Virus record (IMG/VR): IMGVR_UViG_3300044959_000131
Location: 32,001-96,000 of that record
Direction: 5' to 3' (one strand)
Length of the DNA: 64,000 bases
Origin: a virus
Shown here: positions 5,142 through 64,000 of the stretch, piece by piece
Numbering within the stretch: the stretch's first letter is position 1
Layout: every line of letters starts with the position of its first letter
Position numbers and translations under genes: made by a program
The notes under the pieces: generated by a model
Databases searched by the model: none
Told to the model about the DNA's origin: nothing
Seen by the model: the letters and a program-made list of their open reading frames with translations, nothing else

Positions 5142-5624
5142 ATGGACTGGGAATCCATCATGAGTTCGTTCTCGGACGAACTCGAAAAGATCGCCTCTGA
5201 GTTAAAGAAAAAAAAGCCTCTTCATGAGAAAATTGTCGAAGTCGGTGCTCCTGTACTTGTAGGTTCTGGCGTCGGAAGGACTCTCAGCGAACTATCGTTC
5301 TCGAAGACTCATGGGGCCTCTCCAAGAAGGAAAACAATCGGCACCATTCTTGGTGCTCTTGGAGGTCTGGGATGGAATAGGCTTAAGGCCGAAAAGAAGC
5401 GTAGAAAGCGTTTAGAAAGACGTTTACGTGTATCGATGAAGCATCATCCGGTAGCGACTACAGCAGTGACTCCGCCTCAACCAACATCACAGATCAAGAC
5501 TGCTGCCGACCTGTTCAAATTCAAAGGAGTGGCCACGCCGAGATTCCTCAGCAAACCTGGAAAAAGCATTAGTAGCCAAGTACCAAAGATTGGGCGTCTA
5601 GGGACTCTTCCGAAGATGCCATAG
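5142..5624 (+). CDS. Small basic protein with FSDELEKIAS and KTAA motifs and Gly-rich hydrophobic segments (candidate internal virion protein)
   Basis: Tightly packed ORF. Contains SFSDELEKIASE, VLVGSGVG, IGTILGALGGLG and IKTAAD. Confidence 0.7.
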   Translation: MDWESIMSSFSDELEKIASELKKKKPLHEKIVEVGAPVLVGSGVGRTLSELSFSKTHGASPRRKTIGTILGALGGLGWNRLKAEKKRRKRLERRLRVSMKHHPVATTAVTPPQPTSQIKTAADLFKFKGVATPRFLSKPGKSISSQVPKIGRLGTLPKMP

Positions 5625-5632
5625 GAGAAACG

Positions 5633-6070
5633 ATGAGCAAGAATAAAGAAGCGGTTGGGAATCTTGGTGAGGAGGAGCTAAACTTCCTCAGGCTCGTTCG
5701 TCAATCGAGGCAGGATACTCGACGCGATGCCGACGCTCTATTCAAGACCGCACCACAAAACAGAGAGCGTGACATCAAGCTGATGAATAAGCTCTTTGTC
5801 CAAGCACCAGGCGCAATAACGATGGCCGACAACCTACTGAAGAATGCCTCGGCCGAGGAGTTCGAGAAGTTTGAGAAGATGAAGATTGCATATAACGTTT
5901 ATGCTTTCTTCGATGGTGGATTTCACTATTCACCAGCACAACGTCGTTACCCAGAACTCTTGAAAGTCGCAAAGAGCAGACCGGCAGTCGTAATGAAGAA
6001 AACTCCAGATCCAGAAACCAAAACTGGAAATACATCTGGAGGCAGGACTCTTTCCGGTGCTATCGACTAA
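5633..6070 (+). CDS. Hypothetical protein with KNAS / KIAY..YAFFD / KVAK motifs
   Basis: AGGAG RBS. KIAYNVYAFFD resembles KAASIYAFFD in ORF 53639. Confidence 0.7.
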   Translation: MSKNKEAVGNLGEEELNFLRLVRQSRQDTRRDADALFKTAPQNRERDIKLMNKLFVQAPGAITMADNLLKNASAEEFEKFEKMKIAYNVYAFFDGGFHYSPAQRRYPELLKVAKSRPAVVMKKTPDPETKTGNTSGGRTLSGAID

Positions 6071-6073
6071 GAA

Positions 6074-7039
6074 ATGCAACTTTCCTCCGACAGACTCGGA
6101 GCTCTCGAATGGGCGTTGCAGAAGCTTTCGGCTAAGAAAGCTGGAACAAAGAAGAATCAGCCTCCAATCGGCATCCCAAAGGCAGAAGTTCTAAAGCCAG
6201 CCGAGGTGACTTTCTTCCCAGCCAAGCCAAAGGCGCCGAAAGCTCCAGCAGCAGTTACTCCTCTAATTACTGCTGCACCATCGCCAATCGTTTCTACTTC
6301 GACGCCTGCTCAGAAGAAAAAAGAGCTCGGATCGAAGAAGAAGAGCGAGCTTGAGCTGTGGGAGAAGTGGAATAGCGGTGGACGGAAGCCACAAGACCTA
6401 GACCCTCTACTCAAGTCTCTGCAACCGCTCATTGAAAATCGAGCCCGAATCTACAAGAACAACGTCGAGATTCCAAACGCGGCGATAGACTTCGAGCACA
6501 AGAGACTCGCCGTCGAGGCCCTTCAGAAGTACGACCCTTCAAAAGGCGCTTCTCTTGGAACATGGGTCTCGAACTACTTGAAGAAGGCAAGTCGATTCAT
6601 TCAAACCAACCAGAACTTTGCTCGAATTACTGAGCCCATTGCCGCAAAGATCGGAAAGTTCAACGCAGCTCGTGCCGAACTTACAGAGCGCCTAGGATTC
6701 GAACCGGATGCGCAGACGTTGGCCGAGGAGACCGGGTTCTCATTGAAGGAGATCAAGCGTCTGACCAAAGAACAGAGGAAAGGACTTGTTTCATCAGGTA
6801 TTACAGGAACAGAAGTAAGCCCTGCCCATTTACTCTCCTCACGCGAACAGGAAGTCATACACCTTATCTACCACCAGCTCACTCCTGAAGAGAGAGTCGT
6901 TCACGAGTACACTTTTGGGTTGATGGGTAAGCCGGCTCTAAAGCCGGGACAAATTGCTAAACAGCTCAAGATGGACAGCTCGAAGGTGGCCAAGATTCGG
7001 ACCTCCATCTTCAACAAGATGAAGCCTTACTTGGAGTAG
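6074..7039 (+). CDS. Phage-encoded sigma70-family RNA polymerase sigma factor with a Pro/Ala/Lys-rich N-terminal extension
   Basis: Region 2 AVEALQKYDPSKGASLGTWV, region 3 ELTERLGFEPDAQTLAEETGFSLKEI, and region 4 LTPEERVVHEYTFGL...QIAKQLKMDSSKVAKIR match sigma70 architecture. Confidence 0.88.
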   Translation: MQLSSDRLGALEWALQKLSAKKAGTKKNQPPIGIPKAEVLKPAEVTFFPAKPKAPKAPAAVTPLITAAPSPIVSTSTPAQKKKELGSKKKSELELWEKWNSGGRKPQDLDPLLKSLQPLIENRARIYKNNVEIPNAAIDFEHKRLAVEALQKYDPSKGASLGTWVSNYLKKASRFIQTNQNFARITEPIAAKIGKFNAARAELTERLGFEPDAQTLAEETGFSLKEIKRLTKEQRKGLVSSGITGTEVSPAHLLSSREQEVIHLIYHQLTPEERVVHEYTFGLMGKPALKPGQIAKQLKMDSSKVAKIRTSIFNKMKPYLE

Positions 7040-7043
7040 CTCG

Positions 7044-7253
7044 ATGGCAGATAGACTATCGAGGCTCAAAGAGCTCGAAAATGCTGCCAAGGAATACATC
7101 AAGGCAGAGCGTAAGAGGGTAGAGAACGAGGTAAAGTCACTGCAGGACATTCTAGATGGCCGTACCGGTGGAGCTGGAATTCAGGCCATAAGCGTGAATA
7201 TCGTGGCGGCGGTCGCCAAAAAGGACCTTGAGGAGTATCTGAAGGGGAAGTAA
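7044..7253 (+). CDS. Hypothetical helical protein
   Basis: 69-aa ORF 4 nt after the sigma stop, within the operon. Confidence 0.65.
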   Translation: MADRLSRLKELENAAKEYIKAERKRVENEVKSLQDILDGRTGGAGIQAISVNIVAAVAKKDLEEYLKGK

Positions 7254-12388: not shown

Positions 12389-12699
12389 GCGACTTGAGAA
12401 AGATCCTTCACTCGGCCTACACCTTCATCCGTAGCCAGGAAATAAACAAGGCCACGGCTTCTCTGACTCTTGACCACCTGATCCAAGAACAGATTACGAG
12501 GCTCAAGAAAGGAGAAACACGGGCAGTACTTGATGCAAAGGGCGAGAGCATGGGGAACAGAATCTCGTACCTTGACACTTTGGACTCACTTGAGAAGGAG
12601 CTGAGCGACGTCATCAAGGCAGTACAGAACGCAGGAAATGACCAAGATAAGCTTGCAGAACTCGGTCTTGAGGTTCTCGATAAGGAGACCGAATCGTGA
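12385..12699 (+). CDS. Hypothetical helical protein
   Basis: ATGA overlap with the upstream stop and GTGA overlap with the downstream start. Confidence 0.7.
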   Translation: MSDLRKILHSAYTFIRSQEINKATASLTLDHLIQEQITRLKKGETRAVLDAKGESMGNRISYLDTLDSLEKELSDVIKAVQNAGNDQDKLAELGLEVLDKETES

Positions 12700-13343
12700 A
12701 AGATTTCAAAATCGTCCACACTAGAAGCCTGCTTGATGTCTACTCGATAGCTCCGATTCGAGGTTTCAGCCCTCCATCCATAGTGGTCGTAGGTCCAGAC
12801 ATGGCTTCAGCGAGTGAAGTCATTTACAATGGTATCTTGGCGACCGAGTTCATTGTATCTTCGCCAACAAGACTAATCGTCCGAATTCCGCCAACTCAGG
12901 TTGGTAAGGACCTTACAGACTTCAAGGTTTTTGCGTCAAAGCCAGTTCTTCGTGGAGATGCGTCACTTGTCTTGGAACTTTCAAAACCACTTCAGTCCGT
13001 ATCAGGGATGGACAGACTTGTTCAGAGCTGGGTGATGATTTTCCTGACGACTCCTGGCTCAGATGTGTTCTCTCCGCAGAGCGGTGGTGGAGCAATGTCA
13101 ATCATCGGCGCACCAATTAATAGAAGGGGGAAGAGCGCGGCTGCGGATTTAAGCCTCGCAATCGACAATACACAAAGAGAGCTCATCAAGCTCCAATCTC
13201 AAACTCGAGGTATTCCACCGGAAGAACGTCTCTTGTCGAGCTCTCTTGAATCTATCGTGTCAGACGAGTCGACAGGAACATTGTCAGCTCGGGTTTTGAT
13301 CAAAAACATGGTAAACCAAACCGCCCAAGTATCGCTGAGCTAA
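12696..13343 (+). CDS. Baseplate wedge protein, gp25/GPW-like C-terminal domain with an IPT/TIG-like N-terminus
   Basis: VSGMDRLVQSWVMIFLTTPGSDVFSPQSGGG resembles the gp25 family. Directly precedes baseplate J. Confidence 0.7.
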   Translation: MKDFKIVHTRSLLDVYSIAPIRGFSPPSIVVVGPDMASASEVIYNGILATEFIVSSPTRLIVRIPPTQVGKDLTDFKVFASKPVLRGDASLVLELSKPLQSVSGMDRLVQSWVMIFLTTPGSDVFSPQSGGGAMSIIGAPINRRGKSAAADLSLAIDNTQRELIKLQSQTRGIPPEERLLSSSLESIVSDESTGTLSARVLIKNMVNQTAQVSLS

Positions 13344-13346
13344 ACA

Positions 13347-16300
13347 ATGGCCAAGTCAAACCTCAGATCATTCTTAGAAGATCGTCTACGGTCTCTTGAC
13401 CCTACTATTGACCTTAGTCCTGGGTCTCCGGCTCAGGTCCAGTTTATCGAACCTGTTCTGAAGTACCTTGGAACTGATCCGTTCGAGACTGATATTGACT
13501 CATTTATCACCGACAGGTTCGCTCAAGAGTTCCCAGACATCTTCGCCGGGGATCCAGGTGTCGTACGGGACATCTTTATCAAGCCTCTCATCCTACTTCT
13601 CGAGCCTTTCAAGCGAGAGACGGAAGCCATCAAGAGGAACCAGTCTCTAAAAGACCCGACTGTCCTATCAGACGAGGATGCTGATGCCCTCGTTGCAAAC
13701 GTCTTCGATGAACGAGATTCTGGATCATTCGCGACCGGGACCGCGAGGGTTATTTTTCCGAACCCGACAAACGTCCAGATCGAAATTACCACTCGGTTCT
13801 TCACCGCCGACGGATTGAGCTACTACCCAACAAATCCCATCTCCATCACTGCAGAGGAGATGGCATTTAACAAGACTGGCACACAGTACTTCATCGACGT
13901 TCCTGTAAAGGCCGAGAAGCAAGGATCGGAGTACAATATCGACGTTGGGACTCTCTCTGGAGTGGATGGCCTCTTCGGAGCCGTCCGAGTCACGAATCTA
14001 CACAAGTTTGAGAACGGAACAGCCAAGGTCGACACACCAACATTCATTGCACAAGCCAGAGAGGCAATGAATGAGAGATCCCTTGTTACGAGACGTGGAG
14101 CCACGGCTCGAATTGGTGATGTCTTTCAGACAGAGATCAGAGCTATTCAAGTAATCGGAGCCAAAGATCCAGAGATGGAGAGAGATATCTTAGTTGCTCT
14201 TTCCCCTGGACATCAGTGGATTACTGGCGTCGTCTCTTTTTGGAAGAAGATGGCCCTTGTTCGTGCAAGAACGATCGAGGGAGACGAAACAGACATCCCT
14301 GTTCCAGGAGATACACTTTACTGCTATCTCCCTAAGTCATTATTTCCAGCACTGGATCAGAGGTCACGTCTCGTAAGGTTGAAGGTTGAGCAGTTATACA
14401 TCGGACCTCTACCTATATCATCGCCATATCAGACGATGTACATCGTTCAGTGGTCCGGGAGCTTCCCGCCTGGCGTGGTCATCGCCGACGGAAGTTCTTT
14501 TGAAGGTGGCTTCTCTAAGAAGGGAAACATCGCCATCAGATCTCTCCCAGGACTTGGTTCTACGAGTATCACCGTACCAAACGGAGAGGTTCATGTATTT
14601 GGCCATACAGACTTCTACGTGCGGCCAATACTTCAGAAGACCTCGACCGCTATCATCAATGAACTCGCAGATAGCAGGTCAATAGTGGAGAGACTGACAC
14701 TCCAAACATTTGGTCTGACAACGGAGAAGAACAAGGTACAGGACACTGGGGCTCCCTCAATTGACTTTGTAAGTCTTGGCGTAGAGCCAGGAGACCTTCT
14801 CAGCATCGAGACAGGAGACGACACCGGCGTATACACCATTCGCGAGGTTACACCTTCGACTTTGTGGCTCGGATCGAATCTTACAAAGTCTCAGTCAAAC
14901 ATTAGATACCGAATTATCAAGAGCATCACCATAGACCCATTCGAGCCAAAGATTCACAAGTTCCCGTTTGCATCTATACTAGCCAACGATTTGCAAACGA
15001 CAATCGGTTCGAACCTCTTCAAGCTCACGTCAAACGACATGACAAGTTTTGGCGTGAAAGTAGGGGATGTCATCAGGGTAAAAAGCGATATTATCGCTGG
15101 CGACTACACGATAGTTGGATTCGACTCAGTTCTCGGTGGACGAGGTCTTCTCGTAGACAGGAAGGCGTCAGCGACGATATCAGGTCTGCAGTACGAGATT
15201 TTCACTCCGCTTGAAAAGATTGAAAGGCCGCTTGTCAGAATCAAGGACATCACTCTTCTAGACTCCGCTGGTCAAGCAACTGGCATCTCAATTCCACTTG
15301 CACAGCCAGTTGGAGTCGTACCAACAAGTAACTTCTCCTCTGCAAGAGTTCGCGGATCCAGCCAGAGACGAAGTGGATTTGTACTACCGAGCTTCAAGAC
15401 CACACCTTTCACAACATACCTTTCTGGAGGACCGGTAAGTGCTCCATCAGGAGACCGTAGATACTCACTTGGATTTGACACTCCAGAAGGGTGGTACTTC
15501 CCGGTCCAATTTGCCGACTTGACGTACGCTGAGTTGGACTACAGAGCAAATCCGTTATCTGGCAAAGGGGATCAGCTTGAACCAGCAAGTTACTTTGTCT
15601 GCGTAGCTGAAGAACTCGATGATTCAGAGAACTTCCCGCCGATCGATCCGAAGCCTGGAGAGTGCCTGAGCATCAAAAACGGCCCGAACAAGGGAAATTA
15701 CATCATCAAGGACGTCATCAAATTCAAGCATCGTCTTACGGCTCCATCGAGGACCGTTTGGACATACTTCATCAAAATCTATGGCTCCTTCCCTGTTGAC
15801 GTTCTCGGCCAACTCTTTGACTTCTTGAACGACGTCGGAGGCGCGGCCGCAGTAACAGAACTGCCGATAACGGGAACCGTCCCTTACCCAGACTTCTTCA
15901 AGAACCTCTACAACTCGCTCGGTACGAAAATTCATGCCGCGCTTTCCATTCTTGGAGTCTCTAGTCCTCCATCTGCAAGCGATCTTCAGGCGGCCCTCGA
16001 TTCGCTTGTCTTCAGCGATTATGACTGGGGAGACCCAGCCCGAGGTGTACTACGTACGTTCTTCCAGAGCCCTACTCTCTTTGAGCAGAGAACAGGTGAT
16101 AAAAACCCAACGACGTACAGCTTCGTCACCAAATCCGGTGAAACAATTCGATTCAGGTGCGACACCAATCGGTACAGGAAGCAGGAGATCATTCCTCCAA
16201 GACTGACGTCTGATGCAGATCCTTTGGACTATCCAAGAGATCTCGACGTTGCGATAACTCTCACCTACTCGGCTCAGACATCGAACTTCACGGTCGGCAA

Positions 16301-18026
16301 GAAATTGACTGGACAGTCGAGTGGGGCATCAGCAATCATCATCGCTGATACCGATTCTGGTTCCACAGGAACACTAACCCTGAAGAACGTAGTCGGAGCA
16401 TTCGAGCCTGGAGAAGTAATCGTCGACGATAATGCTGTTCCTGGTAGTGCTACGGCTGGGTCGGTTGGTGCATCGAATATCGTCAACTTTACCGACATCT
16501 CTCGACCATCGATCTTCTCTCTTGGGGTCGTCCCTGGAGATGTCCTTTCTGTGCATGAGGAGATCTTCTTCCACGGAACAGACAATAGCCGTCAGACAGC
16601 TGTTCAGACGATTGCTGGGACCCCTCAAATCACAGCTCCATCGACATCTGGAAACATCTTCACTCCCGACATGGTTGGCAACTTGCTCTACATCGAACAA
16701 GGGCAAGACGCTGGTGCCTACCGCGTCGTCAAGTTCATCGATGGTAGAAACATTGTTCTCGATAAAGCCCTGACAGAGTCGACTCCGACAATCCTAGCAC
16801 AGGGTATTTTGACCTCTTGGGGGCACGATGGTGGGGCCAATAAAATCATGTCCGTTCCTCCACCTCCTTCTCCTCCATTCGACTTCAGCCCATACATAGG
16901 GAAGTTCATCACCATCTATGGGATGAGCTACAAGTTCCAAGGCTCTTACGAGATTACTGGAGCCCCTGCTCTTGGTGCATGTATCATCTCGAAACCGTCT
17001 CCAGACTTCCCAGGATCGCCCATACTTCACTCTGAGACGGACGCGCATTGGGTCATTACTGATGCCCCGGTCTCCCCTCCAGCAACATCTGAGAGTGGTA
17101 CTGAACTCTACGCTTTGCGTCCGATTCGGATGTACAAGTCGGCCGCAAAAGACATTGTGATAACTTCTAGAGTCAACAACGACCTGTCTCTATCTCAGGC
17201 CGTCATAGCGACTTCTCCAACCTTGACGCCCGGTCTCAGGCAGCCTTTCAGGATCTATCGAAAGGACGTTCGTCGTGTAACTCCATCAGAGATGGAAGAG
17301 AACAGGTTCGGTCAGCTTGTGTACTTCGACACCGAGGTGAGCTCTTTATCACCGTATGAATCGGCAAACATCGATGCGGAGTCGTTCCTAACTGTCGATG
17401 AGGGAACGTACTCCTCATTTGGGTACAGACACCACCCGGACGACAGAACACTGACCTACTCGATGAAGGAGAGCGGTACTCTGAGTATTTCTCCACGTAT
17501 CCTACCGGTTGGAAGTCCGGATAGCGAGGATAATTTCATCAATCTCCTAGGCTCGTCGGTGAGGGTCACCTACGAGAGGTCAGACTTGGTAGAGAAGGTC
17601 CAAGAGTTCGCTGATTCCGCTCAAGACCGTGTTACGTCAGCAAACATCTTGGTCCGGCACTTCCTGCCTGCTTATGTCTCGTATGATGCAGAGTACTTTG
17701 GAGGAAGCGCTCCTAGTGTCATTGCATCGGATATAATCAATTACATCGACAATCTACCTGTTGAGCAGCCGCTGGACGTCTCAGAGATTCAAGACTTGAT
17801 ATCAAGACGTGGTGGCAACATAGTCACTCCAACGACTGTTCAGATTCTAATTCATGACTGGTCGAGGAGAGTATGGCTTGAGTTCAGCTCTAATCAGGTT
17901 GGTGGGACTGTTACCAAGGTACCATACGATGGTACTCCTCGGGTCTCATTCTTCATCCCAGGTCCGGATGTTTCTGGGCAAGACCCAATCCCTGAAGGAG
18001 AGCGAATCAATCTGACTCGGTATTAG
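13347..18026 (+). CDS. Giant baseplate J / gp6-like wedge protein with about 1100 aa of inserted beta modules
   Basis: The N-terminal DLSPGS...RDIFIKP...ATGTARVIF...YFIDVPVKAEKQGSEYNI...VRVTN...G is baseplate-J-like. The C-terminal NILVRHFLP...IINYIDNL is J-like. Confidence 0.8.
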   Translation: MAKSNLRSFLEDRLRSLDPTIDLSPGSPAQVQFIEPVLKYLGTDPFETDIDSFITDRFAQEFPDIFAGDPGVVRDIFIKPLILLLEPFKRETEAIKRNQSLKDPTVLSDEDADALVANVFDERDSGSFATGTARVIFPNPTNVQIEITTRFFTADGLSYYPTNPISITAEEMAFNKTGTQYFIDVPVKAEKQGSEYNIDVGTLSGVDGLFGAVRVTNLHKFENGTAKVDTPTFIAQAREAMNERSLVTRRGATARIGDVFQTEIRAIQVIGAKDPEMERDILVALSPGHQWITGVVSFWKKMALVRARTIEGDETDIPVPGDTLYCYLPKSLFPALDQRSRLVRLKVEQLYIGPLPISSPYQTMYIVQWSGSFPPGVVIADGSSFEGGFSKKGNIAIRSLPGLGSTSITVPNGEVHVFGHTDFYVRPILQKTSTAIINELADSRSIVERLTLQTFGLTTEKNKVQDTGAPSIDFVSLGVEPGDLLSIETGDDTGVYTIREVTPSTLWLGSNLTKSQSNIRYRIIKSITIDPFEPKIHKFPFASILANDLQTTIGSNLFKLTSNDMTSFGVKVGDVIRVKSDIIAGDYTIVGFDSVLGGRGLLVDRKASATISGLQYEIFTPLEKIERPLVRIKDITLLDSAGQATGISIPLAQPVGVVPTSNFSSARVRGSSQRRSGFVLPSFKTTPFTTYLSGGPVSAPSGDRRYSLGFDTPEGWYFPVQFADLTYAELDYRANPLSGKGDQLEPASYFVCVAEELDDSENFPPIDPKPGECLSIKNGPNKGNYIIKDVIKFKHRLTAPSRTVWTYFIKIYGSFPVDVLGQLFDFLNDVGGAAAVTELPITGTVPYPDFFKNLYNSLGTKIHAALSILGVSSPPSASDLQAALDSLVFSDYDWGDPARGVLRTFFQSPTLFEQRTGDKNPTTYSFVTKSGETIRFRCDTNRYRKQEIIPPRLTSDADPLDYPRDLDVAITLTYSAQTSNFTVGKKLTGQSSGASAIIIADTDSGSTGTLTLKNVVGAFEPGEVIVDDNAVPGSATAGSVGASNIVNFTDISRPSIFSLGVVPGDVLSVHEEIFFHGTDNSRQTAVQTIAGTPQITAPSTSGNIFTPDMVGNLLYIEQGQDAGAYRVVKFIDGRNIVLDKALTESTPTILAQGILTSWGHDGGANKIMSVPPPPSPPFDFSPYIGKFITIYGMSYKFQGSYEITGAPALGACIISKPSPDFPGSPILHSETDAHWVITDAPVSPPATSESGTELYALRPIRMYKSAAKDIVITSRVNNDLSLSQAVIATSPTLTPGLRQPFRIYRKDVRRVTPSEMEENRFGQLVYFDTEVSSLSPYESANIDAESFLTVDEGTYSSFGYRHHPDDRTLTYSMKESGTLSISPRILPVGSPDSEDNFINLLGSSVRVTYERSDLVEKVQEFADSAQDRVTSANILVRHFLPAYVSYDAEYFGGSAPSVIASDIINYIDNLPVEQPLDVSEIQDLISRRGGNIVTPTTVQILIHDWSRRVWLEFSSNQVGGTVTKVPYDGTPRVSFFIPGPDVSGQDPIPEGERINLTRY

Positions 18027-55613: not shown

Positions 55614-57674
55614 ATGTCATTCGACAGCCTCAGCCTTGGATTTGGTGGAACTTCACGCTTTTCTGGTCAGCGTGGACGTACTGCGGACGGCATGTCACGG
55701 AGCGGTATTCGTTACCCGTCTCCGTTCTTTGACATCGGACATACCTACCTGCCGCCGTCCCTCAAGGCTCTTCTCAGGTGGTGTAGGTACTACTACCTCG
55801 TGAATCCGCTCATCAACGCGGTCATTCACAAGATGTCGGAGTATCCAATCACCGAAATTGTCATCGACGAAAAGGACCCCGAAATCAAAAACAAATGGGA
55901 CTCTCTCCTTGGAGAGATTCTTCGGATTCGTCCATTTCAAATAGAGGTTGGCCTGGACTACTACACATACGGGATGTGCATTGTCACGATTCACTTCCCG
56001 TTCGACAAGTTCCTTATCTGCAGGAACTGCGGATTCAAAGACAAGGCGACGAAGATCAACTACCGTTGGCGTAACCTCGACTACATTGTCGATTGCCCAA
56101 AATGCGGCCACTCGGGACCTGCAAAGGTTCAGGACTTCTACAAGCGAGATGTCAACGGCATCCGATTGATGAGGTGGAATCCAGAGTACGTGAACATCGA
56201 TCCGGCATTTGCTGGTGCAGATCCAGTCTACACATTCGAGCTCCCACTTCAGGTCCGGAATGACGTCATCCTCGGTAAGAAGAGTGTGCTCGACACCATC
56301 CCGGACACATTCATCGAGGCGATGAAGAGGAACAAGTATGTCCGTTTCTCAGACGACAACCTCTTTGTTTTCAAGCGGCCCATCATCAGCCAGAAAGATT
56401 CTGGTTGGGGTATGCCGCTCATCTTCCCTGTCCTCAAAGACACGTTCTATCTACAGATATTGAGGAAGGCACAAGAGGCTATTGCTGCTGAGCACATTGT
56501 TCCACTCCGAGTTCTCTTCCCACAACCCGGCTCTGCATCCTCGGATCCATACTCGACGATTTCACTCGACTCGTGGAAGAGCAGGATCGAAAGCGAGATC
56601 GCGAAGTGGAAATACGACAACAACTACATTCCTATTCTCCCTCTTCCAATCGGAAATCAGACCATCGGCGGGCAAGGCCGTGCGTTGATGCTTCACCAAG
56701 AGATGGAGGTCTGGTCTAGGCAGATCGTTGCTGGGATGGGTGTTCCGCAGGAATTTGTATTCGGTGGAATGCAGTACTCTGGATCCAATGTCTCGATGCG
56801 AATGGTCGAGAACATGTTTCTTGGGTACAGAACCGATCATGATTTGATGCTCAATCACTTTGCCATCAAGCGCATCGCTCATTTCATGGGGTGGCCGCCT
56901 GTGAAGGCACACATGAGACGATTCAAGATGGCAGATGACCTACAACGTTCAGCCTTCTTCTTTCAGCTAAATCAAGCTGGAAAGATTTCAGACCAGACGT
57001 TGCTGCAAGAAGTTGATTTCGATCCAGCAACTGAGGAGACTCGTCGCAAGATTGAGCTAGACAAGCAACTTGAGTTCAATCGCAAGATGCAAGTCGCTCA
57101 AGCTTCTATTCAGGGCGAGATGCAAATCGTTCAGGCTCGCTATCAAAAGCGGGTTTCAGAGCTTATGCAGCCTCCTGCCGAGAATATGTCTCCTGTAGCT
57201 CCTCAAATGGCTGAATCCGGAGGTGGTGCTCTAGTAGAGCCGCCTCCTCCAGAGAATCCTTCAGAGAACACTGAAGGCGGTCCAGTTACGACACCGGAAG
57301 GTGAAATGCTACCTGGTAAACAAGTCGACCCGGCCATGCCTTCTAATTCGACAGTGTCATTCGAGAATGCTCAGAGTGCTCCATCAGAGGGTATCCCACC
57401 AGAGATGATGAGCCCACTCTCGGCGAGCATGAAGGGCGGTGGATTCAATCTTCTCTATTTGGCACGACGTGCGGCAACCGCGCTTCTCAAGATGGATGAA
57501 GGTCAGAGGATGGCCGAGATGAACAACATGAAGATGACCAACCCTCAGCTATACAGCCTAGTATTACAGCTTTTGAATCGCGAAAGAGGATCGCAGGAGA
57601 ATCCTCTTGATGCTGTTCAAAGCCCTCAGCCGCAGATTAAGCCCTCACGTCGTGCGAGCTCAACTGGTGTTTGA
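55614..57674 (+). CDS. Portal protein with a Zn-ribbon insertion and a long Pro/Glu-rich C-terminus
   Basis: LLRWCRYYY..NPLINAVI.KM.EYP, GLDYYTYG, WGMPLI, AIA...PLRVL, MGVPQEF.FGG..YSG are portal-type motifs. Confidence 0.8.
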   Translation: MSFDSLSLGFGGTSRFSGQRGRTADGMSRSGIRYPSPFFDIGHTYLPPSLKALLRWCRYYYLVNPLINAVIHKMSEYPITEIVIDEKDPEIKNKWDSLLGEILRIRPFQIEVGLDYYTYGMCIVTIHFPFDKFLICRNCGFKDKATKINYRWRNLDYIVDCPKCGHSGPAKVQDFYKRDVNGIRLMRWNPEYVNIDPAFAGADPVYTFELPLQVRNDVILGKKSVLDTIPDTFIEAMKRNKYVRFSDDNLFVFKRPIISQKDSGWGMPLIFPVLKDTFYLQILRKAQEAIAAEHIVPLRVLFPQPGSASSDPYSTISLDSWKSRIESEIAKWKYDNNYIPILPLPIGNQTIGGQGRALMLHQEMEVWSRQIVAGMGVPQEFVFGGMQYSGSNVSMRMVENMFLGYRTDHDLMLNHFAIKRIAHFMGWPPVKAHMRRFKMADDLQRSAFFFQLNQAGKISDQTLLQEVDFDPATEETRRKIELDKQLEFNRKMQVAQASIQGEMQIVQARYQKRVSELMQPPAENMSPVAPQMAESGGGALVEPPPPENPSENTEGGPVTTPEGEMLPGKQVDPAMPSNSTVSFENAQSAPSEGIPPEMMSPLSASMKGGGFNLLYLARRAATALLKMDEGQRMAEMNNMKMTNPQLYSLVLQLLNRERGSQENPLDAVQSPQPQIKPSRRASSTGV

Positions 57675-59220: not shown

Positions 59221-59314
59221 GCCGTCCAAGGCTCAACGACCTCAGATGCGTAGAGGTAGAGCCTGGCAAGCCATAACCCACCTACGCATAGTGGGCGACA
59301 TTAGAGAGGGCACC

Positions 59315-62300
59315 TTGTCGACGCTAACACCAGAGGGTTCTTTCGAAATTCTCAAGAACAACGTCGTACGCGCCATCTCTTCCTACTTCCCCTACGAGGG
59401 AAAACAGAGGAAGTTGGAGCTACACAAAGTCTGGGTTGATGACAAACTTCATACTGATGACATCAAGTCACAGACTGAGGCAAAGGACCTAGACAAGACG
59501 TGGGGCGTACCAGTCAAGGCAGATGTCTCTCTCGTCGACAAAACGACAGGCAAAGTCATCGATCGAAAGACGATGACCATTGCCAGATTACCGAAGATGA
59601 CGAACCGGTACGGGTTCATCGTCGATGGGAATGAGTACCAGATCGACCATCTCTTCCGTTTGAAGTCCGGGGTGTACGCCAGAATTCAGGACAACGGCGA
59701 CCTGGAGTCAGAGTTCAACCTCGTCAAGGGACCTGCTGGTAACAGGTTCTCAATCCTCCTTGAGAGAGAGTCCAAGAAGTTCTTCCTGAAGCAGGGGGAC
59801 GCAAAGATTCCACTATACCCAATACTCAAGTCTCTAGGTGTATCAGACGATGAGATTGAGAAGAGTTGGGGAAAGGAAATACTCGCTGCCAATCGACCAA
59901 AAACCGAAGAGAAGACCTTAAAGAGTCTTCAGACCTTTTGGAAGAAGACGTCGTTCGAAGACCAGACGGAGCCGAGTGATTTAGGTGGTTATGCCCGCTA
60001 TGTACACGACTTCTTCGATAAGACGGTCCTTCGACCAGACACAACAAAGATCACTCTTGGAAAGCCAGCAACTAAGGTTGATGGTTCTGTTCTTCTGACG
60101 GCCGCGAACAAGATTCTCGGTGTTTCTAGAGGGACCCATCAGCCAGACGATAGAGACAGCCTTGCGTTCAAGGAGATCGTATCGATAGAGGACTTCCTGC
60201 CAGAGAAGATTGAGCGATCCATGAGGACGATTCGTGGAAAGCTCCGTAACACGATTGACCTCAAAGACAAGAAATCTGTCTCTGAAGTTTTGTCTACTGA
60301 CCTTTTTGCTCGCCCAATCCGTGAGTTCTTCACAAAGGGCGGCTCTTTGACGGAGAGGCCTGACCAGACGAATCCTATTCAAATGATGTCTGGTCACAGG
60401 AAGACGACGTTGATGTCTTCCGACCTTGGAGGAATCAAGAAAGAACATTCCATCACGGATGAGATGCGTGTCATCAATCCGAGCCACTTTGGGTTTCTAG
60501 ACCCAATGCATACCCCGGAGTCAGAGAAAACAGGCATCACTCTACATCTGGGAATGGCGGCTAGGAAAAATGGAAAAGATCTTGAGACTCCTGTCTTCAA
60601 CGTCAAAGAAAACAAGATTCAATACCTAAATGCAACAGACTTTCATAACAGTCATGCTGTTCTACCAGACCAGGTTCGCTGGGTCGGTGGCAAGCCTGTT
60701 CCGATAGCCGAAAACGTCAAGATGAAGCTCCCAGGTGGGAGCATCGAGGTTCGACCATTCAGAGAAGCTCAATACGTCATGCCGTCCGCAAAGGGCATGT
60801 TCGACATCGCTTCGAATCTCATACCTTTCTTACCATCGAACCAAGGCAACCGTGTTTCGATGGCTGATAAGCAGATGGAGCAGGCCATCTCTCTAAAGTA
60901 TAGAGAGGAGCCTCTCGTACAAACCAAGACCGACCATGCGGACCCGAATCTGACATTCGAAAAAGTTCTCGGTGGGTTCACATCTCATAGAGCTCCAGTC
61001 TCAGGTAAAGTCGTCTCCGTAAAGAACGATTCAATTACCATCAGTGACGGTAAGAAAAAGCACCAAGTTCATCTCTATGAACACTTCCCCCTCAACGACC
61101 CAAAGGGGATGATGCACTCAGAGCCTGTCGTGAAGGTCGGAGACACGGTCCGACAAGGACAGGTTATTGCTGACAACAACTTCACCAAGAATGGAACGCT
61201 CTCGCTTGGAGTGAATCTTCGTGTCGGATACATCCCTTACAAGGGCTACAACTACGAAGATGGTATCGTTATATCTGAGAGCGCCGCAAAGAAACTCACG
61301 TCCGAACACCTCTATAAGAAGAAGATCGAACTCGATCCTGAGAACGACGTCATTTCAAAGAGCAAGTTCATCGCTTATGCTGCTACCAAAGCCAATCAGC
61401 TAACAAAAGAGCAGCTTGATCTATTGGACGATGATGGAGTCATTCGAGTTGGTTCCAAGGTTCGTCCAGGTCAAGTTCTGATTGCAGCAGTCGGTAAGAA
61501 CCTTACGACACGCCAAGGTAGTGCTCTCGCAGCTCTAGGAAAGAGGGCCTTTCAGCCGTACAAGGATAAGTCACTTGTATGGGACGAAGACCACGTTGGC
61601 GAAGTCGTAAAGGTCATCAAAGATCCATCTGGAAAAGGGGTCAAGGTATACGTCAAAACTGAAGAGCCACTGGTTGTAGGTGACAAGTTGTCAGGCCGTC
61701 ACGGTAACAAAGGAATCGTGACGATGATCCTTCCTGACCACGAGATGCCGTTCACCATAGACGCCGACGGAAAACGACGTCCACTTGAAGTCCTTCTCAA
61801 CCCAACAGGTGTTCCAACACGTATCAATGTTGGTCAAGTTCTGGAAACGGCGGCCGGTAAAATTGCTGAGAAGACAGGAAAGCCGTACATCGTCAATAAC
61901 TTCTCAGGCCCGAACACGAACTACCGTGAACAGGTACTGAAAGACCTTCGTGCTCATGGCCTTAGAGACGAAGAGCTTGTCTACGACCCAAAGGACCCGA
62001 AAAGGCCACTTGGCTCGGTTCTCGTCGGTCCTCAGTATCTTTTGAAGCTTAAGCATCAAGTTGAGAAGAAGCTCACAGTTCGTGGAGGTGGGACGGATGT
62101 TACCGGTCGTGGACTTCCATACGATATAGATAGGACCCCGACAAAGGGAGGAGAGAGAGGGGGCCAAGGCTTTGGAGCCCTCGACGTCTACGCCCTTCTT
62201 GGACATGACGCTCGCCATAATCTTCGTGAGATGGCGACTCAAAAATCCGACTTCCAAGACATGACGTTCTGGAACATGGTCCAAGAAGGCCATGAACCAC

Positions 62301-64000
62301 CTCCCCCGAAGCCGCCGTTCAGCTACGAAAAGTTTGTCAGTCTACTGAAAGGTCTCGGAGTCAACGTCGAAAAGAAAGGAACGGCTCTTCAACTCTCTCC
62401 ACTCACAGACCGTCATGTCATCGAGATGGCTGGAGGCCATAAGGGTGAGTTGAAGAATCCACATCTCGCCCTTCGAGCTAAGGACCTGAAAGAAGAACGT
62501 GGTGGTCTGTTCGACCCAGTTGCGACTGGCGGTATCGTTGGAGACAAGTGGAGCTATATCAAGCTCACGGAGCCGATGCCGAACCCAATCTTCGTCGGCT
62601 CAAACAACCGTCCTGGACCCATTCCGGCTCTACTTGGATTGAAGCTCAAAGAGCTTGATGAGGTCATGAAAGGCGTTCGACAGATCGACGGTAAGACAGG
62701 TGGCATGGCCATATACGATGCCTTGAAAAAGGTTGACGTCGACAAAGAACTCGCTGCTCTTCGTGAGAAGCTTCCTACACTCACAGGTGCAGCTCTCGAC
62801 CGTGCGAATAAGAAGTTCAAATATCTGTCGGCTCTGAAGGAAGCAGGTCTGAAGCCTCATGAAGCGTACGTCATGAACGTAGTTCCGGTCATCCCTCCGG
62901 TGTTCCGACCTGCTACCGTCACACAAAATGGCGATGTTCAGTACTCGTCTTTGAACGGACTATACAAAAACATCGCCATACTCAACAACAAGCTCAGCGA
63001 AGTAGATCCAAAGGTATTCTCTGAAGAACACAGGTCTCCTCTTCGCTGGCAGCTCTACGACAGCCTGAGGGCTCTTCAATCGGTTGGCGGTTCCGTCGGC
63101 TACGACATCGACTCTCCAGGAAGCAAGAGAAAGTTAAAGGGAATCCTCGACATCATAGGTGGAGGAGAGGGTGAGCAGCCGAAGGAAGGCTATTTCCAGT
63201 CCAAGCTGGTCAAGCGAAGGCAGAATCTATCCATCCGCTCAACAATCGTTCCAGAGCCAAAACTTGGAATCGATGAAGTAGGTATTCCAAGAGGCGCAGC
63301 GATGGAGTTGTACAAGCCATTCGTTGTAGCCGAGCTAGCTCACCACGGCTTTGATCCTCTATCTGCTCAGCAAGAGATGAGGAACGGAACGAAGGCTGCG
63401 TACGACGCACTTGAGAAGGTCATCAAGGAACGGCCTCTTCTTCTCAAACGCGATCCAGCTCTTCACAAGTTCTCGATCATGGCCTTTACACCTAGGCTCG
63501 TAGAGGGAAAGGCCATTCAGATTCATCCTCTAGTTACTGGTGGATACAACGCCGATTTCGACGGTGACACGATGGCCGCAACTGTCCCTCTAACAAGAGA
63601 GGCCGTCGAAGAAGCGAAGAAGATGTTTCCTTCGAAGAACCTCTTCTCCCCTACAACCGGTGGTGTAATGTATTCGCCGACTCAAGAAGCGCTCCTCGGA
63701 CTTCATCTTCTTTCGAAGTGGGGCAAGCCTATCGGCAAAACATTCTCAAACCCACTCGAGCTGAACAAAGCTGTTCAGAGAGGAGAGGTTCACCCAACAG
63801 ACGTCGTAAAGGTAGGAAACAAGGAAACGACATTTGGACGATTGCTTCTTGAGTCTAGAATGCCAAGGGACTTCTACCTCAATAAAGACATTCTCCACAA
63901 CCCATCATTCGTTATCGACAAGAAGACACTCAATAGCCAAATCATCACACCTCTTGCTAAGAATCACACTCGAGAATTTGCTTCCGTCGTTGACGAATTG
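59315..64000 (+). CDS. rpoBC: Fused DNA-directed RNA polymerase beta-beta' subunit (3' truncated by the window end; missing from the ORF track)
   Basis: Hand translation shows no stop from 59195 to 64000 (TTG 59315 follows a GAGG RBS; ATG 59246 is an alternative start). Beta motifs: LPKMT..GFIVDG, DQTNP, PSHFG, NLIPFL, GYNYED, GDKLSGRHGNKG, NPTGVPTRIN, GGQGFG. Beta' motifs follow in the same frame: GGLFD, VPVIPPVFRP, KEGYFQSKL, RDPALHK, YNADFDGDTM (63548-63568). Confidence 0.97.
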   Translation, partial: MSTLTPEGSFEILKNNVVRAISSYFPYEGKQRKLELHKVWVDDKLHTDDIKSQTEAKDLDKTWGVPVKADVSLVDKTTGKVIDRKTMTIARLPKMTNRYGFIVDGNEYQIDHLFRLKSGVYARIQDNGDLESEFNLVKGPAGNRFSILLERESKKFFLKQGDAKIPLYPILKSLGVSDDEIEKSWGKEILAANRPKTEEKTLKSLQTFWKKTSFEDQTEPSDLGGYARYVHDFFDKTVLRPDTTKITLGKPATKVDGSVLLTAANKILGVSRGTHQPDDRDSLAFKEIVSIEDFLPEKIERSMRTIRGKLRNTIDLKDKKSVSEVLSTDLFARPIREFFTKGGSLTERPDQTNPIQMMSGHRKTTLMSSDLGGIKKEHSITDEMRVINPSHFGFLDPMHTPESEKTGITLHLGMAARKNGKDLETPVFNVKENKIQYLNATDFHNSHAVLPDQVRWVGGKPVPIAENVKMKLPGGSIEVRPFREAQYVMPSAKGMFDIASNLIPFLPSNQGNRVSMADKQMEQAISLKYREEPLVQTKTDHADPNLTFEKVLGGFTSHRAPVSGKVVSVKNDSITISDGKKKHQVHLYEHFPLNDPKGMMHSEPVVKVGDTVRQGQVIADNNFTKNGTLSLGVNLRVGYIPYKGYNYEDGIVISESAAKKLTSEHLYKKKIELDPENDVISKSKFIAYAATKANQLTKEQLDLLDDDGVIRVGSKVRPGQVLIAAVGKNLTTRQGSALAALGKRAFQPYKDKSLVWDEDHVGEVVKVIKDPSGKGVKVYVKTEEPLVVGDKLSGRHGNKGIVTMILPDHEMPFTIDADGKRRPLEVLLNPTGVPTRINVGQVLETAAGKIAEKTGKPYIVNNFSGPNTNYREQVLKDLRAHGLRDEELVYDPKDPKRPLGSVLVGPQYLLKLKHQVEKKLTVRGGGTDVTGRGLPYDIDRTPTKGGERGGQGFGALDVYALLGHDARHNLREMATQKSDFQDMTFWNMVQEGHEPPPPKPPFSYEKFVSLLKGLGVNVEKKGTALQLSPLTDRHVIEMAGGHKGELKNPHLALRAKDLKEERGGLFDPVATGGIVGDKWSYIKLTEPMPNPIFVGSNNRPGPIPALLGLKLKELDEVMKGVRQIDGKTGGMAIYDALKKVDVDKELAALREKLPTLTGAALDRANKKFKYLSALKEAGLKPHEAYVMNVVPVIPPVFRPATVTQNGDVQYSSLNGLYKNIAILNNKLSEVDPKVFSEEHRSPLRWQLYDSLRALQSVGGSVGYDIDSPGSKRKLKGILDIIGGGEGEQPKEGYFQSKLVKRRQNLSIRSTIVPEPKLGIDEVGIPRGAAMELYKPFVVAELAHHGFDPLSAQQEMRNGTKAAYDALEKVIKERPLLLKRDPALHKFSIMAFTPRLVEGKAIQIHPLVTGGYNADFDGDTMAATVPLTREAVEEAKKMFPSKNLFSPTTGGVMYSPTQEALLGLHLLSKWGKPIGKTFSNPLELNKAVQRGEVHPTDVVKVGNKETTFGRLLLESRMPRDFYLNKDILHNPSFVIDKKTLNSQIITPLAKNHTREFASVVDEL

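What the first reader, a model, noticed from the sequence alone, without database searches (positions are those of the whole stretch)
6074..7039. Phage sigma factor sits among virion genes and has a ~85-aa disordered leader that starts with the K-x-S motif
Seen: the sigma core starts near residue 90. The preceding segment is Pro/Ala/Lys-rich and begins LEWALQKLSAKK, resembling the motif in the three genes directly upstream in the same operon. Established: group 1 sigma factors have an acidic region 1.1, not a basic low-complexity leader. Inference: this sigma may be packaged into the head and processed like its neighbours, so it is delivered pre-made; alternatively the leader controls its stability or localisation.
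Basis: partly seen in the sequence, partly recalled or inferred. Interest (0 to 1): 0.7.

Follow-up and report, generated by a model that had tools for sequence, protein, structure and literature searches.

The report
Phage sigma factor with head-type leader
A large uncultured phage encodes, among its tail genes, a sigma factor with an extra front end: a short acidic helix ending in the signal that marks the phage's head proteins, then a floppy basic linker. This suggests the sigma is loaded into the capsid and trimmed so that it arrives ready-made with the DNA, but neither loading nor cutting has been measured.

Summary
ORF 6074-7039 encodes a sigma-70-family protein (regions 2-4) in the baseplate gene block of a 177-kb phage that also encodes a single-chain beta-beta' RNA polymerase.

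The leader has three parts:
- Residues 4-20 form a helix.
- Residues 21-77 are a disordered K/P/A-rich basic linker.
- The conserved block and confident fold start at residue 78; the sigma core proper starts near residue 90.

The helix ends in L-Q-K-L-S-A. K17 is invariant in 36 aligned homologues, and W13 and L15 are at least 90% conserved. This hexamer fits a pattern found 19 times in the phage proteome against about 3 expected, 11 of them in the head block. Among 123 diverse relatives with a leader, 75 carry K-x-small-small near the N-terminus against about 26 expected.

Salmonella phage Arash is a distant cultured relative. Its published virion proteome contains sigma, beta and beta'. But its sigma has no leader, and 116 proteins were detected in that preparation.

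My best reading, at about 45%, is a T4-CTS-like capsid-targeting propeptide on a sigma that is packaged and delivered. Cleavage and packaging are inferred, not shown. The resemblance to the upstream genes is limited to the six-residue site and is clear for two of the three.

The scan flagged the same feature on another genome. That follow-up judged the peptide not to be the head leader, and I agree only for the whole leader, not for the site.

The parts
6074..7039 (+). Sigma-70-family factor gene, 321 aa plus stop
   Evidence: ORF; Pfam Sigma70_r3 and PHROG 351; PDB profile match to RpoS at 3e-12; Foldseek top hits are all sigma factors; 102 close homologues
6074..6133 (+). Leader part 1, residues 1-20: N-terminal amphipathic helix. 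It is net neutral here and acidic (median net -3 before the Lys) across the family. It ends in L15-Q-K17-L-S19-A20 (nt 6116-6133), the putative recognition and cleavage site.
   Evidence: AF2 helix 4-20; K17 invariant, W13 and L15 at least 90% conserved in 36 sequences; about 95 of 102 homologues carry the motif with W at position 13; charges; hexamer enriched 19 vs 3
6134..6304 (+). Leader part 2, residues 21-77: disordered basic K/P/A-rich linker of variable length
   Evidence: pLDDT under 50; net charge +7; family linkers are 18-75 aa, median net charge +6, with 24% K, 14.5% P and 12.7% A; length varies across the alignment
6305..7036 (+). Conserved sigma body, residues 78-321: basic helix KKKEL..ELWxxW, then sigma regions 2, 3 and 4
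   Evidence: High pLDDT; core HMM starts at residue 90; r3 at residues 192-238; alignment to RpoS 136-327
5142..5624 (+). Small Gly-zipper protein with N-terminal SFSDELEKIAS (K16-I-A-S)
   Evidence: homologues with F.DEL.KI[AS] lie upstream of sigma in L003-L010
4815..5138 (+). Small protein with an imperfect copy of the leader (GFEDELLSIC...TKYAG)
5633..6070 (+). Third upstream small gene. It has no N-terminal motif, only internal K-x-A sites (FKTAP, LLKNASA, LLKVAKS).
   Evidence: conserved N-terminus MSKNKEAVGNLG.EEL in L003, L004 and L007
1535..4744 (+). 1069-aa probable baseplate hub or structural protein upstream of the module
   Evidence: Three collinear weak matches to Arash structural gp8, best E 4e-4. 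A large protein (917-1274 aa) with a similar N-terminus where the whole ORF is seen (L003, L004, L007, L008, L010) stands at the same place in L003-L008, L010 and L012
7044..7551 (+). Two conserved small genes after sigma: a 69-aa coiled-coil protein and a 97-aa protein with an N-terminal membrane segment
   Evidence: The 69-aa protein follows sigma in L003-L010; the membrane protein is seen in L003-L007. Only sub-threshold FlgM and PspB hits
12696..18026 (+). Baseplate wedge genes downstream
   Evidence: PHROG 43 and PHROG 6 hits
55614..57674 (+). Portal protein, at the start of the head block that carries the K-x-A sites
   Evidence: PHROG portal families
59246..64000 (+). Single-chain beta-beta' RNA polymerase, the presumed partner of this sigma; it runs past the window end
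   Evidence: Pfam Rpb2 and Rpb1 domains in one ORF; ORF of 2109 aa in the genome; no N-terminal K-x-A site and no enrichment, 3 vs 4.5

Best explanation
The gene encodes the sigma subunit for the phage's own single-chain beta-beta' RNA polymerase. It is expressed with the late virion genes.

Its roughly 85-residue leader is a pro-region with three parts:
1. An N-terminal amphipathic helix, acidic in most relatives.
2. The site hydrophobic-(E/Q/D)-K-hydrophobic-(A/S), followed by A, that marks the phage's head-assembly proteins.
3. A flexible basic Lys/Pro/Ala tether.

Proposed mechanism, by analogy with the T4 capsid targeting sequence:
1. The helix docks sigma, alone or bound to the polymerase, into the assembling prohead core.
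2. The head-maturation protease cuts after Ser19 and removes about 19 residues.
3. The mature sigma, still carrying its basic tail, stays with the packaged DNA.
4. Sigma is ejected into the next host and starts transcription from phage-specific promoters.

Shown: sigma identity, leader architecture, conservation and enrichment of the site, conserved gene position, and virion detection of sigma, beta and beta' in a distant cultured relative.

Inferred: targeting, cleavage, ejection, and pairing with the phage polymerase.
For: 1. Sigma identity and leader anatomy.

2. The N-terminal peptide is under selection. K17 is invariant, and W13 and L15 are at least 90% conserved in 36 sequences down to 44% identity. 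The linker between the peptide and the core varies freely in length and sequence.

3. The site is the shared element of otherwise divergent leaders. Of 123 family representatives (one per 50%-identity cluster) with a leader, 75 carry K-x-[ASG]-[ASG] against 25.9 +/- 4.2 in shuffles (highest shuffle 39). The first site lies at residues 5-19 in 64 of those 75. After excluding the 24 leaders of this phage's own type, 46 of 99 have it in the first 25 residues against 8.3 +/- 2.8. Versions with R or E in place of K are not enriched.

4. In this genome, K-x-[AS]-[ASG] is enriched only in the head block (63 vs 29.8 +/- 5.3). It is not enriched in tail genes (14 vs 15.6), the polymerase (3 vs 4.5) or the remaining genes (58 vs 59.1). 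An N-terminal copy occurs in 10 of 37 head-block ORFs and in 0 of 18 tail ORFs, but does occur in sigma and in two of its three upstream neighbours.

5. The six-residue pattern occurs 19 times against 2.96 +/- 1.63 expected, 11 of them in the head block. Sigma has it at residue 15, next to near-identical placements in 5142 (residue 14) and a 293-aa protein (residue 13).

6. The site sits at the helix-to-disorder boundary, so it should be accessible.

7. Arash head proteins gp220-225 share the enrichment, for example 7 vs 1.3.

8. Arash virion mass spectrometry found sigma Gp10 (24 peptides, 467 spectra). Beta (Gp206) was the most-detected protein, and beta' (Gp216) was also present (PMC10585845). 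Arash beta begins MPKSAS.

9. The sigma and polymerase genes lie in late structural blocks. The phage-specific promoter word TCGGKATAAG occurs 4 times against 0.13 expected, all on the opposite strand from the structural genes. A polymerase needed before late genes are expressed would have to be brought in ready-made.

10. Precedents: the T4 CTS (PMC9958956), and the SPN3US head-packaged polymerase with N-terminal propeptides of 20-24 residues (PMC10052503).
Against: - No cleavage or packaging data exist for this phage or for any leader-bearing relative.
- The sigmas of Arash and Vibrio D69, and 27 of the 150 best family representatives, have no leader. Virion association in Arash therefore does not depend on a leader.
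- The Arash virion preparation contained 116 proteins, including metabolic enzymes, so cytoplasmic carry-over is plausible.
- Profiles of the whole sigma leader do not match the FxDELxKIA leaders above reversed-sequence controls. Matches to head proteins are weak, at 4-6 bits.
- The leaders across the family may share one ancestor (EFLKxAA resembles EWVLEKLSA). If so, the enrichment partly reflects descent rather than independent selection.
- I did not identify the head protease. PF03420 found nothing in the genome, and Pfam and PHROG scans of head-block ORFs named none.
- The sigma gene sits in the baseplate block, not the head block.
- The polymerase itself carries no N-terminal site.
Confidence: 0.45

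Rival explanations
1. The leader is a regulatory module of the sigma and is not cut. The tethered N-terminal helix docks on the sigma core, the phage polymerase or an anti-sigma partner, acting as a minimal functional analogue of region 1.1. The basic linker contacts DNA. The K-x-A likeness to head proteins then reflects helix composition or shared ancestry of leaders.
For: - The architecture (a small, usually acidic helical element on a long flexible tether ahead of region 1.2) mirrors region 1.1 of group 1 sigmas in layout.
- Conserved W13 and L15 on one helix face suggest a protein-protein contact.
- Whole-leader profiles do not match the head or FxDELxKIA leaders significantly.
- A conserved small membrane protein with faint FlgM similarity follows the gene.
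- An earlier follow-up on another genome (e1-5745705) also concluded that the peptide is not the head leader.
Against: - The part conserved across very divergent leaders is precisely K-x-small-small. R or E cannot replace K.
- The same site is enriched only in head-block proteins.
- The linker is basic, not acidic like the region 1.1 linker.
- This reading does not explain why a sigma and polymerase needed for non-structural genes are encoded in late structural blocks.
Confidence: 0.25
2. The protein is a pro-sigma timing device. The leader keeps sigma inactive or sequestered until a phage protease removes it in the cytoplasm or at the assembling head. This would couple a transcription switch to morphogenesis, as with Bacillus pro-sigmaE and pro-sigmaK, without packaging sigma into the virion.
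For: - The leader is a short N-terminal amphipathic pro-sequence of about 20 residues ending in a protease-type site. Bacillus pro-sigmaE and pro-sigmaK have prosequences of similar length (my own knowledge, not tested here).
- The site is shared with protease substrates.
- The sigma is co-expressed with assembly genes.
Against: - Head-maturation proteases of tailed phages are known to act inside assembled proheads (PMC9958956).
- Sigma was detected in Arash virions.
- Leaderless family members exist.
- I did not look for a membrane protease of the SpoIIGA or SpoIVFB type.
Confidence: 0.12
3. The protein is an ordinary late sigma that redirects the host polymerase to late promoters. The leader is a tolerated low-complexity extension with no specific role, and the motif match is chance.
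For: - Many large phages encode sigma factors that use the host core enzyme (PMC7824862).
- Within this one protein the count of K-x-[AS]-[ASG] is only 4 vs 1.5 +/- 1.1 expected.
Against: - The N-terminal residues are invariant or nearly so across more than 100 homologues.
- The site is enriched strongly and at a fixed position across the family.
- The phage encodes its own beta-beta' polymerase.
- Sigma was found in Arash virions.
Confidence: 0.08

Closest known systems
Bacteriophage T4 capsid targeting sequence (CTS) on internal proteins IPII and IPIII, removed by prohead protease gp21
   Same: Both are short N-terminal peptides on non-shell proteins that end at the head-protease site. The T4 CTS directs cargo into the prohead core and is then cut off, and the cargo is injected with the DNA (PMC9958956).
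   Different: The T4 CTS is about 10 residues and is cut after Glu (L/I-x-E). Here the peptide is about 19 residues and the inferred site is K-x-(A/S) followed by A. The cargo would be a transcription initiation factor. Targeting and cleavage are not demonstrated, and the whole-leader sequence is not shared with other proteins.
Virion RNA polymerases of phiKZ-like phages (for example the SPN3US five-subunit vRNAP) and of N4
   Same: A phage polymerase made late is packed in the head and ejected to transcribe early genes. SPN3US head proteins have N-terminal propeptides, some only 20-24 residues long (PMC10052503).
   Different: Those enzymes have no sigma-70-type subunit (PMC7824862). Here the partner is a near-cellular beta-beta' fusion with a true sigma regions 2-4 factor, and it is the sigma that carries the tag.
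Salmonella phage Arash Gp10 (sigma) with Gp206 and Gp216 (beta and beta')
   Same: The sigma is homologous (29% identity over the core) and sits at the same place after the large structural or hydrolase protein. Arash shares the K-x-A enrichment in head proteins. Its sigma and polymerase were found in the virion proteome.
   Different: Arash sigma is 234 aa and starts directly at the core, with no helix and no linker. Its polymerase is split into two genes. A K-x-A-S site is instead at residues 3-6 of beta.
Bacillus subtilis pro-sigmaE and pro-sigmaK
   Same: Both are sigma-70-family factors made with an N-terminal prosequence of 20-odd residues whose removal is tied to a morphogenetic stage (my own knowledge).
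   Different: Those are cut by dedicated membrane proteases (SpoIIGA, SpoIVFB) and are not packaged. There is no sequence likeness to them, and this comparison was not tested here.
Region 1.1 of group 1 sigma factors
   Same: Both are N-terminal elements tethered by a flexible linker ahead of region 1.2.
   Different: Region 1.1 is an acidic helical domain of about 90 residues with an acidic linker. Here there is a single helix of about 17 residues and a strongly basic linker.

Membership tests
Sigma-70 family | Sigma2 domain (regions 1.2-2.4) that binds the beta' clamp helices and the -10 element | tested here: met
   The family profile aligns to RpoS from residue 136 onward, including region 2. 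NCBIfam FliA/WhiG and RpoD models align from residues 81-94 or 147. AF2 predicts confident helices at 78-179. Foldseek aligns 250-290 columns to sigma chains.
Sigma-70 family | Sigma3 domain | tested here: met
   Pfam PF04539 scores 27.9 bits against a cut-off of 25.3, at residues 192-238.
Sigma-70 family | Sigma4 helix-turn-helix (region 4.2) | tested here: met
   The profile alignment reaches RpoS residue 327. RpoD_Cterm aligns to residues 147-317. There is no separate Pfam r4 hit.
Named sigma subfamilies (RpoD, RpoS, FliA/WhiG, SigB/F/G, ECF) | Score above the curated NCBIfam cut-off | tested here: not met
   The best hit is 37 bits against a cut-off of 384, and all 16 hits are far below their cut-offs. 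The protein belongs to a separate phage clade with 6300 library hits at E <= 1e-3.
Group 1 sigma | Acidic region 1.1 domain | tested here: not met
   No family, solved-structure or fold match reaches the leader. The model shows a single helix followed by a disordered basic linker.
T4-type capsid targeting sequence | Short peptide at the extreme N-terminus of the cargo | tested here: met
   The motif lies at residues 11-20 here and at a fixed position (W at residue 13) in most of the 102 homologues.
T4-type capsid targeting sequence | The same peptide is shared by several head-cargo proteins | tested here: inconclusive
   The six-residue site is shared and enriched (19 vs 3), and N-terminal copies occur in 10 of 37 head-block ORFs. 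Whole-leader profiles do not match other proteins above controls.
T4-type capsid targeting sequence | The peptide ends at a site cut by the prohead protease and is removed in mature virions | not testable with these tools
   This needs N-terminal or semi-tryptic mass spectrometry. I did not identify the protease gene.
T4-type capsid targeting sequence | The peptide is sufficient to load a foreign protein into capsids | not testable with these tools
   This needs a reporter-fusion experiment.
Virion-packaged RNA polymerase systems | Polymerase subunits present in purified virions | not testable with these tools
   This is known only for the distant relative Arash, from a published proteome of a preparation with 116 proteins. 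There are no data for this phage.
Pro-sigma factors (sigmaE/sigmaK type) | Dedicated SpoIIGA- or SpoIVFB-type processing protease | not tested
   I did not search for these proteases.

The most novel reading that the evidence does not exclude
A sigma-70-family initiation factor has acquired a capsid-targeting, protease-removed propeptide. It acts as the adaptor that loads a near-cellular single-chain RNA polymerase holoenzyme into the phage head. A complete bacterial-type transcription initiation machine is then injected with the genome. The tag has moved between subunits during evolution: it sits on sigma in this clade and on beta in Arash.
Probability: 0.2. Interest if true: 0.85.

Novelty: new variant of a known kind. 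Interest (0 to 1): 0.6.

Why it matters
All studied virion-packaged phage polymerases lack a sigma-70-type subunit. N4 has a single-subunit enzyme, and phiKZ-like phages have split multisubunit enzymes.

If this reading is right, it would show three things:
- A true sigma factor can be virion cargo.
- Phages can tag a cellular-type transcription factor with a head-loading and cleavage signal.
- A very large uncultured phage group (6300 sigma relatives at E <= 1e-3) starts infection independently of host transcription.

The short leader would also be a candidate portable tag for loading foreign proteins into capsids. It would give a direct handle on the proposed Lys-x-Ala cleavage rule, which differs from the cut-after-Glu rule of T4 and phiKZ-type proteases.

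If the leader is instead regulatory, it would be a new kind of sigma N-terminal control element.

Tried and rejected
I used the search for related loci instead, which returned 10 viral loci.
- A profile of the sigma leader (16 residues around K17, 116 sequences) searched against the phage's own ORFs gave only weak non-self hits. The best were three head-block proteins at 4.3-6.4 bits and one ORF outside that block at 5.6 bits, against 0.4 bits in a reversed control. The FxDELxKIA proteins scored about -0.5 bits. I therefore reject whole-leader homology with the upstream genes.
- A profile built from the other leader types gave 4.6 bits on the real ORFs against 4.1 on the reversed ones, which is not significant. 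Only the ranking, with 11 of the top 16 hits being motif carriers, is suggestive.
- PF03420 (T4 prohead protease) found nothing in the genome. PHROG and Pfam scans of head-block ORFs named no protease, scaffold or capsid protein. The protease remains unidentified by me.
- The single-chain polymerase has no N-terminal K-x-A site and no enrichment, so I dropped the idea that it carries its own tag.
- The promoter and terminator scan showed no internal signal separating sigma from its neighbours.
- I considered a wrong start codon, which would leave the leader untranslated. I rejected this because the leader's N-terminus is conserved at the protein level across more than 100 homologues.
- I considered region 1.1 and rejected it on charge and fold.
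Full report
**What is there.** The window is bases 32001-96000 of a 176,945-base viral contig rated 93% complete. ORF 6074-7039 (+ strand, 321 aa) starts three bases after the stop of the preceding gene. It is a sigma-70-family protein on four lines of evidence:
- Pfam Sigma70_r3 scores above its cut-off, 27.9 against 25.3 bits, at residues 192-238.
- PHROG 351, 'RNA polymerase sigma factor', matches at 1.5e-11.
- A profile of 36 homologues matches RpoS, RpoD and SigA chains of solved holoenzymes at up to 3e-12, from region 2 to region 4.2.
- All top Foldseek matches of the AlphaFold2 model are sigma factors.

No curated NCBIfam subfamily cut-off is approached; the best hit is 37 bits against 384. 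The protein therefore belongs to a separate phage clade. That clade is large: 102 close homologues of 269-334 aa and 6300 library proteins at E <= 1e-3.

**Leader anatomy.** The AlphaFold2 model (mean pLDDT 77) has three parts:
- a helix at residues 4-20 (pLDDT 59-74);
- no structure at 21-77 (pLDDT under 50);
- a confident all-helical body at 78-320.

Residues 21-77 contain 11 Pro, 10 Ala and 9 Lys+Arg, with net charge +7. Across 101 homologues the stretch before the conserved Lys is acidic (median net -3). The linker after it is 18-75 residues long and basic (median +6), with 24% Lys, 14.5% Pro and 12.7% Ala. This is not region 1.1.

**Conservation.** In the 36-sequence alignment, which reaches down to 44% identity, K17 is invariant and W13 and L15 are at least 90% conserved. 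The consensus is ALxWVLxKL(S/A)AxKK. The linker has no fixed length or sequence. About 95 of the 102 close homologues have the motif, with Trp at residue 13. The leader is therefore translated and selected, and the selected part is the first 20 residues.

**Position among virion genes.** Upstream lies a 1069-aa protein with three collinear weak matches to Arash structural protein gp8. Downstream are baseplate-wedge matches, PHROG 43 at 12696-13343 and PHROG 6 at 13347-18026. Seven related viral loci at 41-80% sigma identity keep the following order:
1. a large hub-like protein;
2. one to four small proteins starting with F-x-D-E-L-x-K-I-A/S;
3. sigma;
4. a conserved small coiled-coil protein of 68-86 aa (five of the seven also keep the small membrane protein after it).

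An eighth locus, L009, lies at a contig end and shows the same order from the small proteins onward. A locus at 26% identity (L012) keeps the hub, a small motif-bearing protein and sigma in that order. The portal (55614-57674) and a single-ORF beta-beta' polymerase (from 59246) lie in the head block of the same window.

**Is the motif the head-protein motif?** I tested this myself rather than relying on earlier notes.

K-x-[AS]-[ASG] counts in this genome, against within-protein shuffles:

| Gene group | Observed | Expected |
|---|---|---|
| Head block (37 ORFs) | 63 | 29.8 +/- 5.3 |
| Tail and baseplate ORFs | 14 | 15.6 |
| Polymerase | 3 | 4.5 |
| All other ORFs | 58 | 59.1 |
| Three small upstream genes | 5 | 1.7 |
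| Sigma | 4 | 1.5 |

A copy within the first 32 residues occurs in 10 of 37 head-block ORFs and in 0 of 18 tail ORFs, but does occur in sigma and in two of its three upstream neighbours.

The longer pattern [LIVFMAT][EQDG]K[ILVMF][AS][ASG] occurs 19 times against 2.96 +/- 1.63 expected (highest shuffle 7). Eleven of these are in the head block. Sigma has it at residue 15 (ALQKLSA), 5142 at residue 14 (ELEKIAS) and a 293-aa protein elsewhere at residue 13 (ELEKIAA).

A profile of the whole sigma leader gives only weak hits to head proteins, at 4.3-6.4 bits against 0.4 bits in a reversed control. It gives none to the FxDELxKIA proteins. The shared element is therefore the site of about six residues, not the whole leader.

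**The wider family.** Among the 150 best 50%-identity representatives, 27 have no leader and 123 do. Of those 123, 75 carry K-x-[ASG]-[ASG] in the leader against 25.9 +/- 4.2 in shuffles (highest 39). The first site lies at residues 5-19 in 64 cases. Replacing K by R or E removes the enrichment.

I then excluded the 24 leaders of this phage's own type. Of the remaining 99, 46 have the site within 25 residues against 8.3 +/- 2.8, and 82 of 99 have at least K-x-[ASG] against 36.7. Typical forms are NPxEEFLKTAA, LLKLAA and FLKFAG. These leaders may share one ancestor, so the counts are not fully independent. Even so, the site is what has been kept.

One relative (P0170, 436 aa) has an FISELQKLA start and a Gly-zipper segment, like the small upstream proteins, fused to the sigma core. 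That points to a functional or evolutionary link between the two.

**Evidence from a cultured relative.** Salmonella phage Arash has a homologous sigma, gp10, with 29% identity over the core, at the syntenic position. Its published virion proteome lists Gp10 with 24 unique peptides and 467 spectra. Beta (Gp206) is the most-detected protein at 3516 spectra, and beta' (Gp216) has 1210 (PMC10585845). Arash head proteins gp220-225 show the same K-x-A enrichment, for example 7 vs 1.3 and 6 vs 1.4.

Three cautions apply:
- That preparation yielded 116 proteins, including ribonucleotide reductases, and the authors themselves raise carry-over as a possibility.
- Arash sigma is 234 aa and begins at the core with no leader, as does the Vibrio phage D69 sigma.
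- Arash beta begins MPKSAS. This is suggestive of a tag on another subunit, but it is a single observation.

**Mechanism.** My best reading, at about 0.45, is that the first roughly 19 residues work like the T4 capsid targeting sequence (PMC9958956). The steps would be:
1. An N-terminal peptide brings sigma, possibly with the polymerase, into the prohead core.
2. The head protease removes the peptide at K-L-S, before A20. The site lies exactly where the helix gives way to disorder.
3. Sigma is delivered with the DNA.

The phage-specific promoter word TCGGKATAAG occurs four times against 0.13 expected, all on the strand opposite to the structural genes. This fits a pre-made polymerase acting on non-structural genes, as in SPN3US, whose head-packaged polymerase and 20-24-residue propeptides are documented (PMC10052503). 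Targeting, cleavage, ejection and the sigma-polymerase pairing are all inferences.

**Rivals.**
- An uncleaved regulatory or docking helix, at about 0.25.
- A pro-sigma timing device without packaging, at about 0.12.
- An ordinary late sigma with a meaningless extension, at about 0.08.

The remaining probability is unassigned.

**Relation to earlier scan notes.**
- Notes on this genome proposed the K-x-A code (e1-5802889, e1-5802905), the small-protein family (e1-5802881), the single-chain polymerase (e1-5802887, e1-5802891) and the promoter (e1-5802894). My own tests agree with the enrichment, the polymerase and the promoter word.
- The same sigma feature was flagged on another genome (e1-5745718, e1-5745705). 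That follow-up concluded the N-terminal peptide is not the head-protein leader. My results agree for the leader as a whole. They disagree for the terminal site, which matches and is enriched.

**Novelty.** My three literature searches and the four papers I read turned up no description of a sigma-70-family factor with a capsid-targeting or protease-type propeptide. The components are known: the CTS, packaged polymerases and pro-sigmas. I therefore rate this a new variant of a known kind.

**Limits.**
- I did not identify the protease.
- I could not run any complex prediction.

Noticed in passing
window 7258-7551 (+), with 7044-7253: The 97-aa protein after sigma has an N-terminal membrane segment and sub-threshold Pfam hits to FlgM (anti-sigma-28, 15.5 bits) and PspB (15.8 bits). 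Sigma is followed by a coiled-coil protein of 68-86 aa in L003-L010, and that in turn by a membrane protein of about 105 aa in L003-L007. It could be a membrane anti-sigma, but this is unverified.
   Followed up: partly
proteins P0120, P0122, P0123, P0129, P0133, P0136, P0142, P0163, P0175, P0176, P0186, P0196, P0202, P0218, P0221: Many distant sigma relatives carry a twin motif directly after the K-x-A site: V-(R/K)-x-H-x-R ... G ... V-x-x-H-x-R. An example is VKEHVRHQGKTTTVVDAHVRHQ. It looks like a second, unexplained leader module.
   Followed up: no
protein P0170 (436 aa): This is a natural fusion. An FISELQKLA start and a Gly-zipper segment, like the small proteins upstream of sigma, are joined to a sigma core that starts near residue 200.
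   Followed up: no
L018:8094-9201 (Arash gp206, RNA polymerase beta): Arash beta begins MPKSAS, so a K-x-A-S site lies at residues 3-6. The Arash sigma has no leader. The tag may sit on a different subunit in that branch.
   Followed up: partly
L016:1381-2262 (genome 6880-7761, outside the window): A 293-aa protein with no Pfam match starts MNLQMLKSFRMELEKIAATR. It has the same leader site at residue 13 and lies far from the head and tail blocks, so it may be another cargo candidate.
   Followed up: partly
window 52263-53639 (+): This 458-aa protein beside the portal starts MKTAG and repeats hydrophobic-K-T-A through its length (IKTAH, VKTAA, MKTAE, VKTAAR, GKTAS). That is the pattern expected of a scaffold or core protein cut into pieces.
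   Followed up: partly
L014:3249-8273 (window-equivalent 81249-86273): This 1674-aa head-block protein has FEKIAG at residue 27. It also has a GCFPAGSIV stretch that looks like an intein N-terminal junction.
   Followed up: no
window 6191-6235 (sigma residues about 40-54) and homologues P0003-P0005, P0011, P0015: The closest relatives share a mini-motif inside the otherwise variable linker: VEVF-x-FPKAP, which is AEVTFFPAKPKAP here. It may be a short linear interaction motif.
   Followed up: no
L013:4757-5836 and L013:7846-9276 (beyond the window end): A DnaJ-domain protein and a protein combining a LigD phosphoesterase with an ATP-dependent DNA ligase lie within the block of K-x-A-rich head-region genes.
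   Followed up: no
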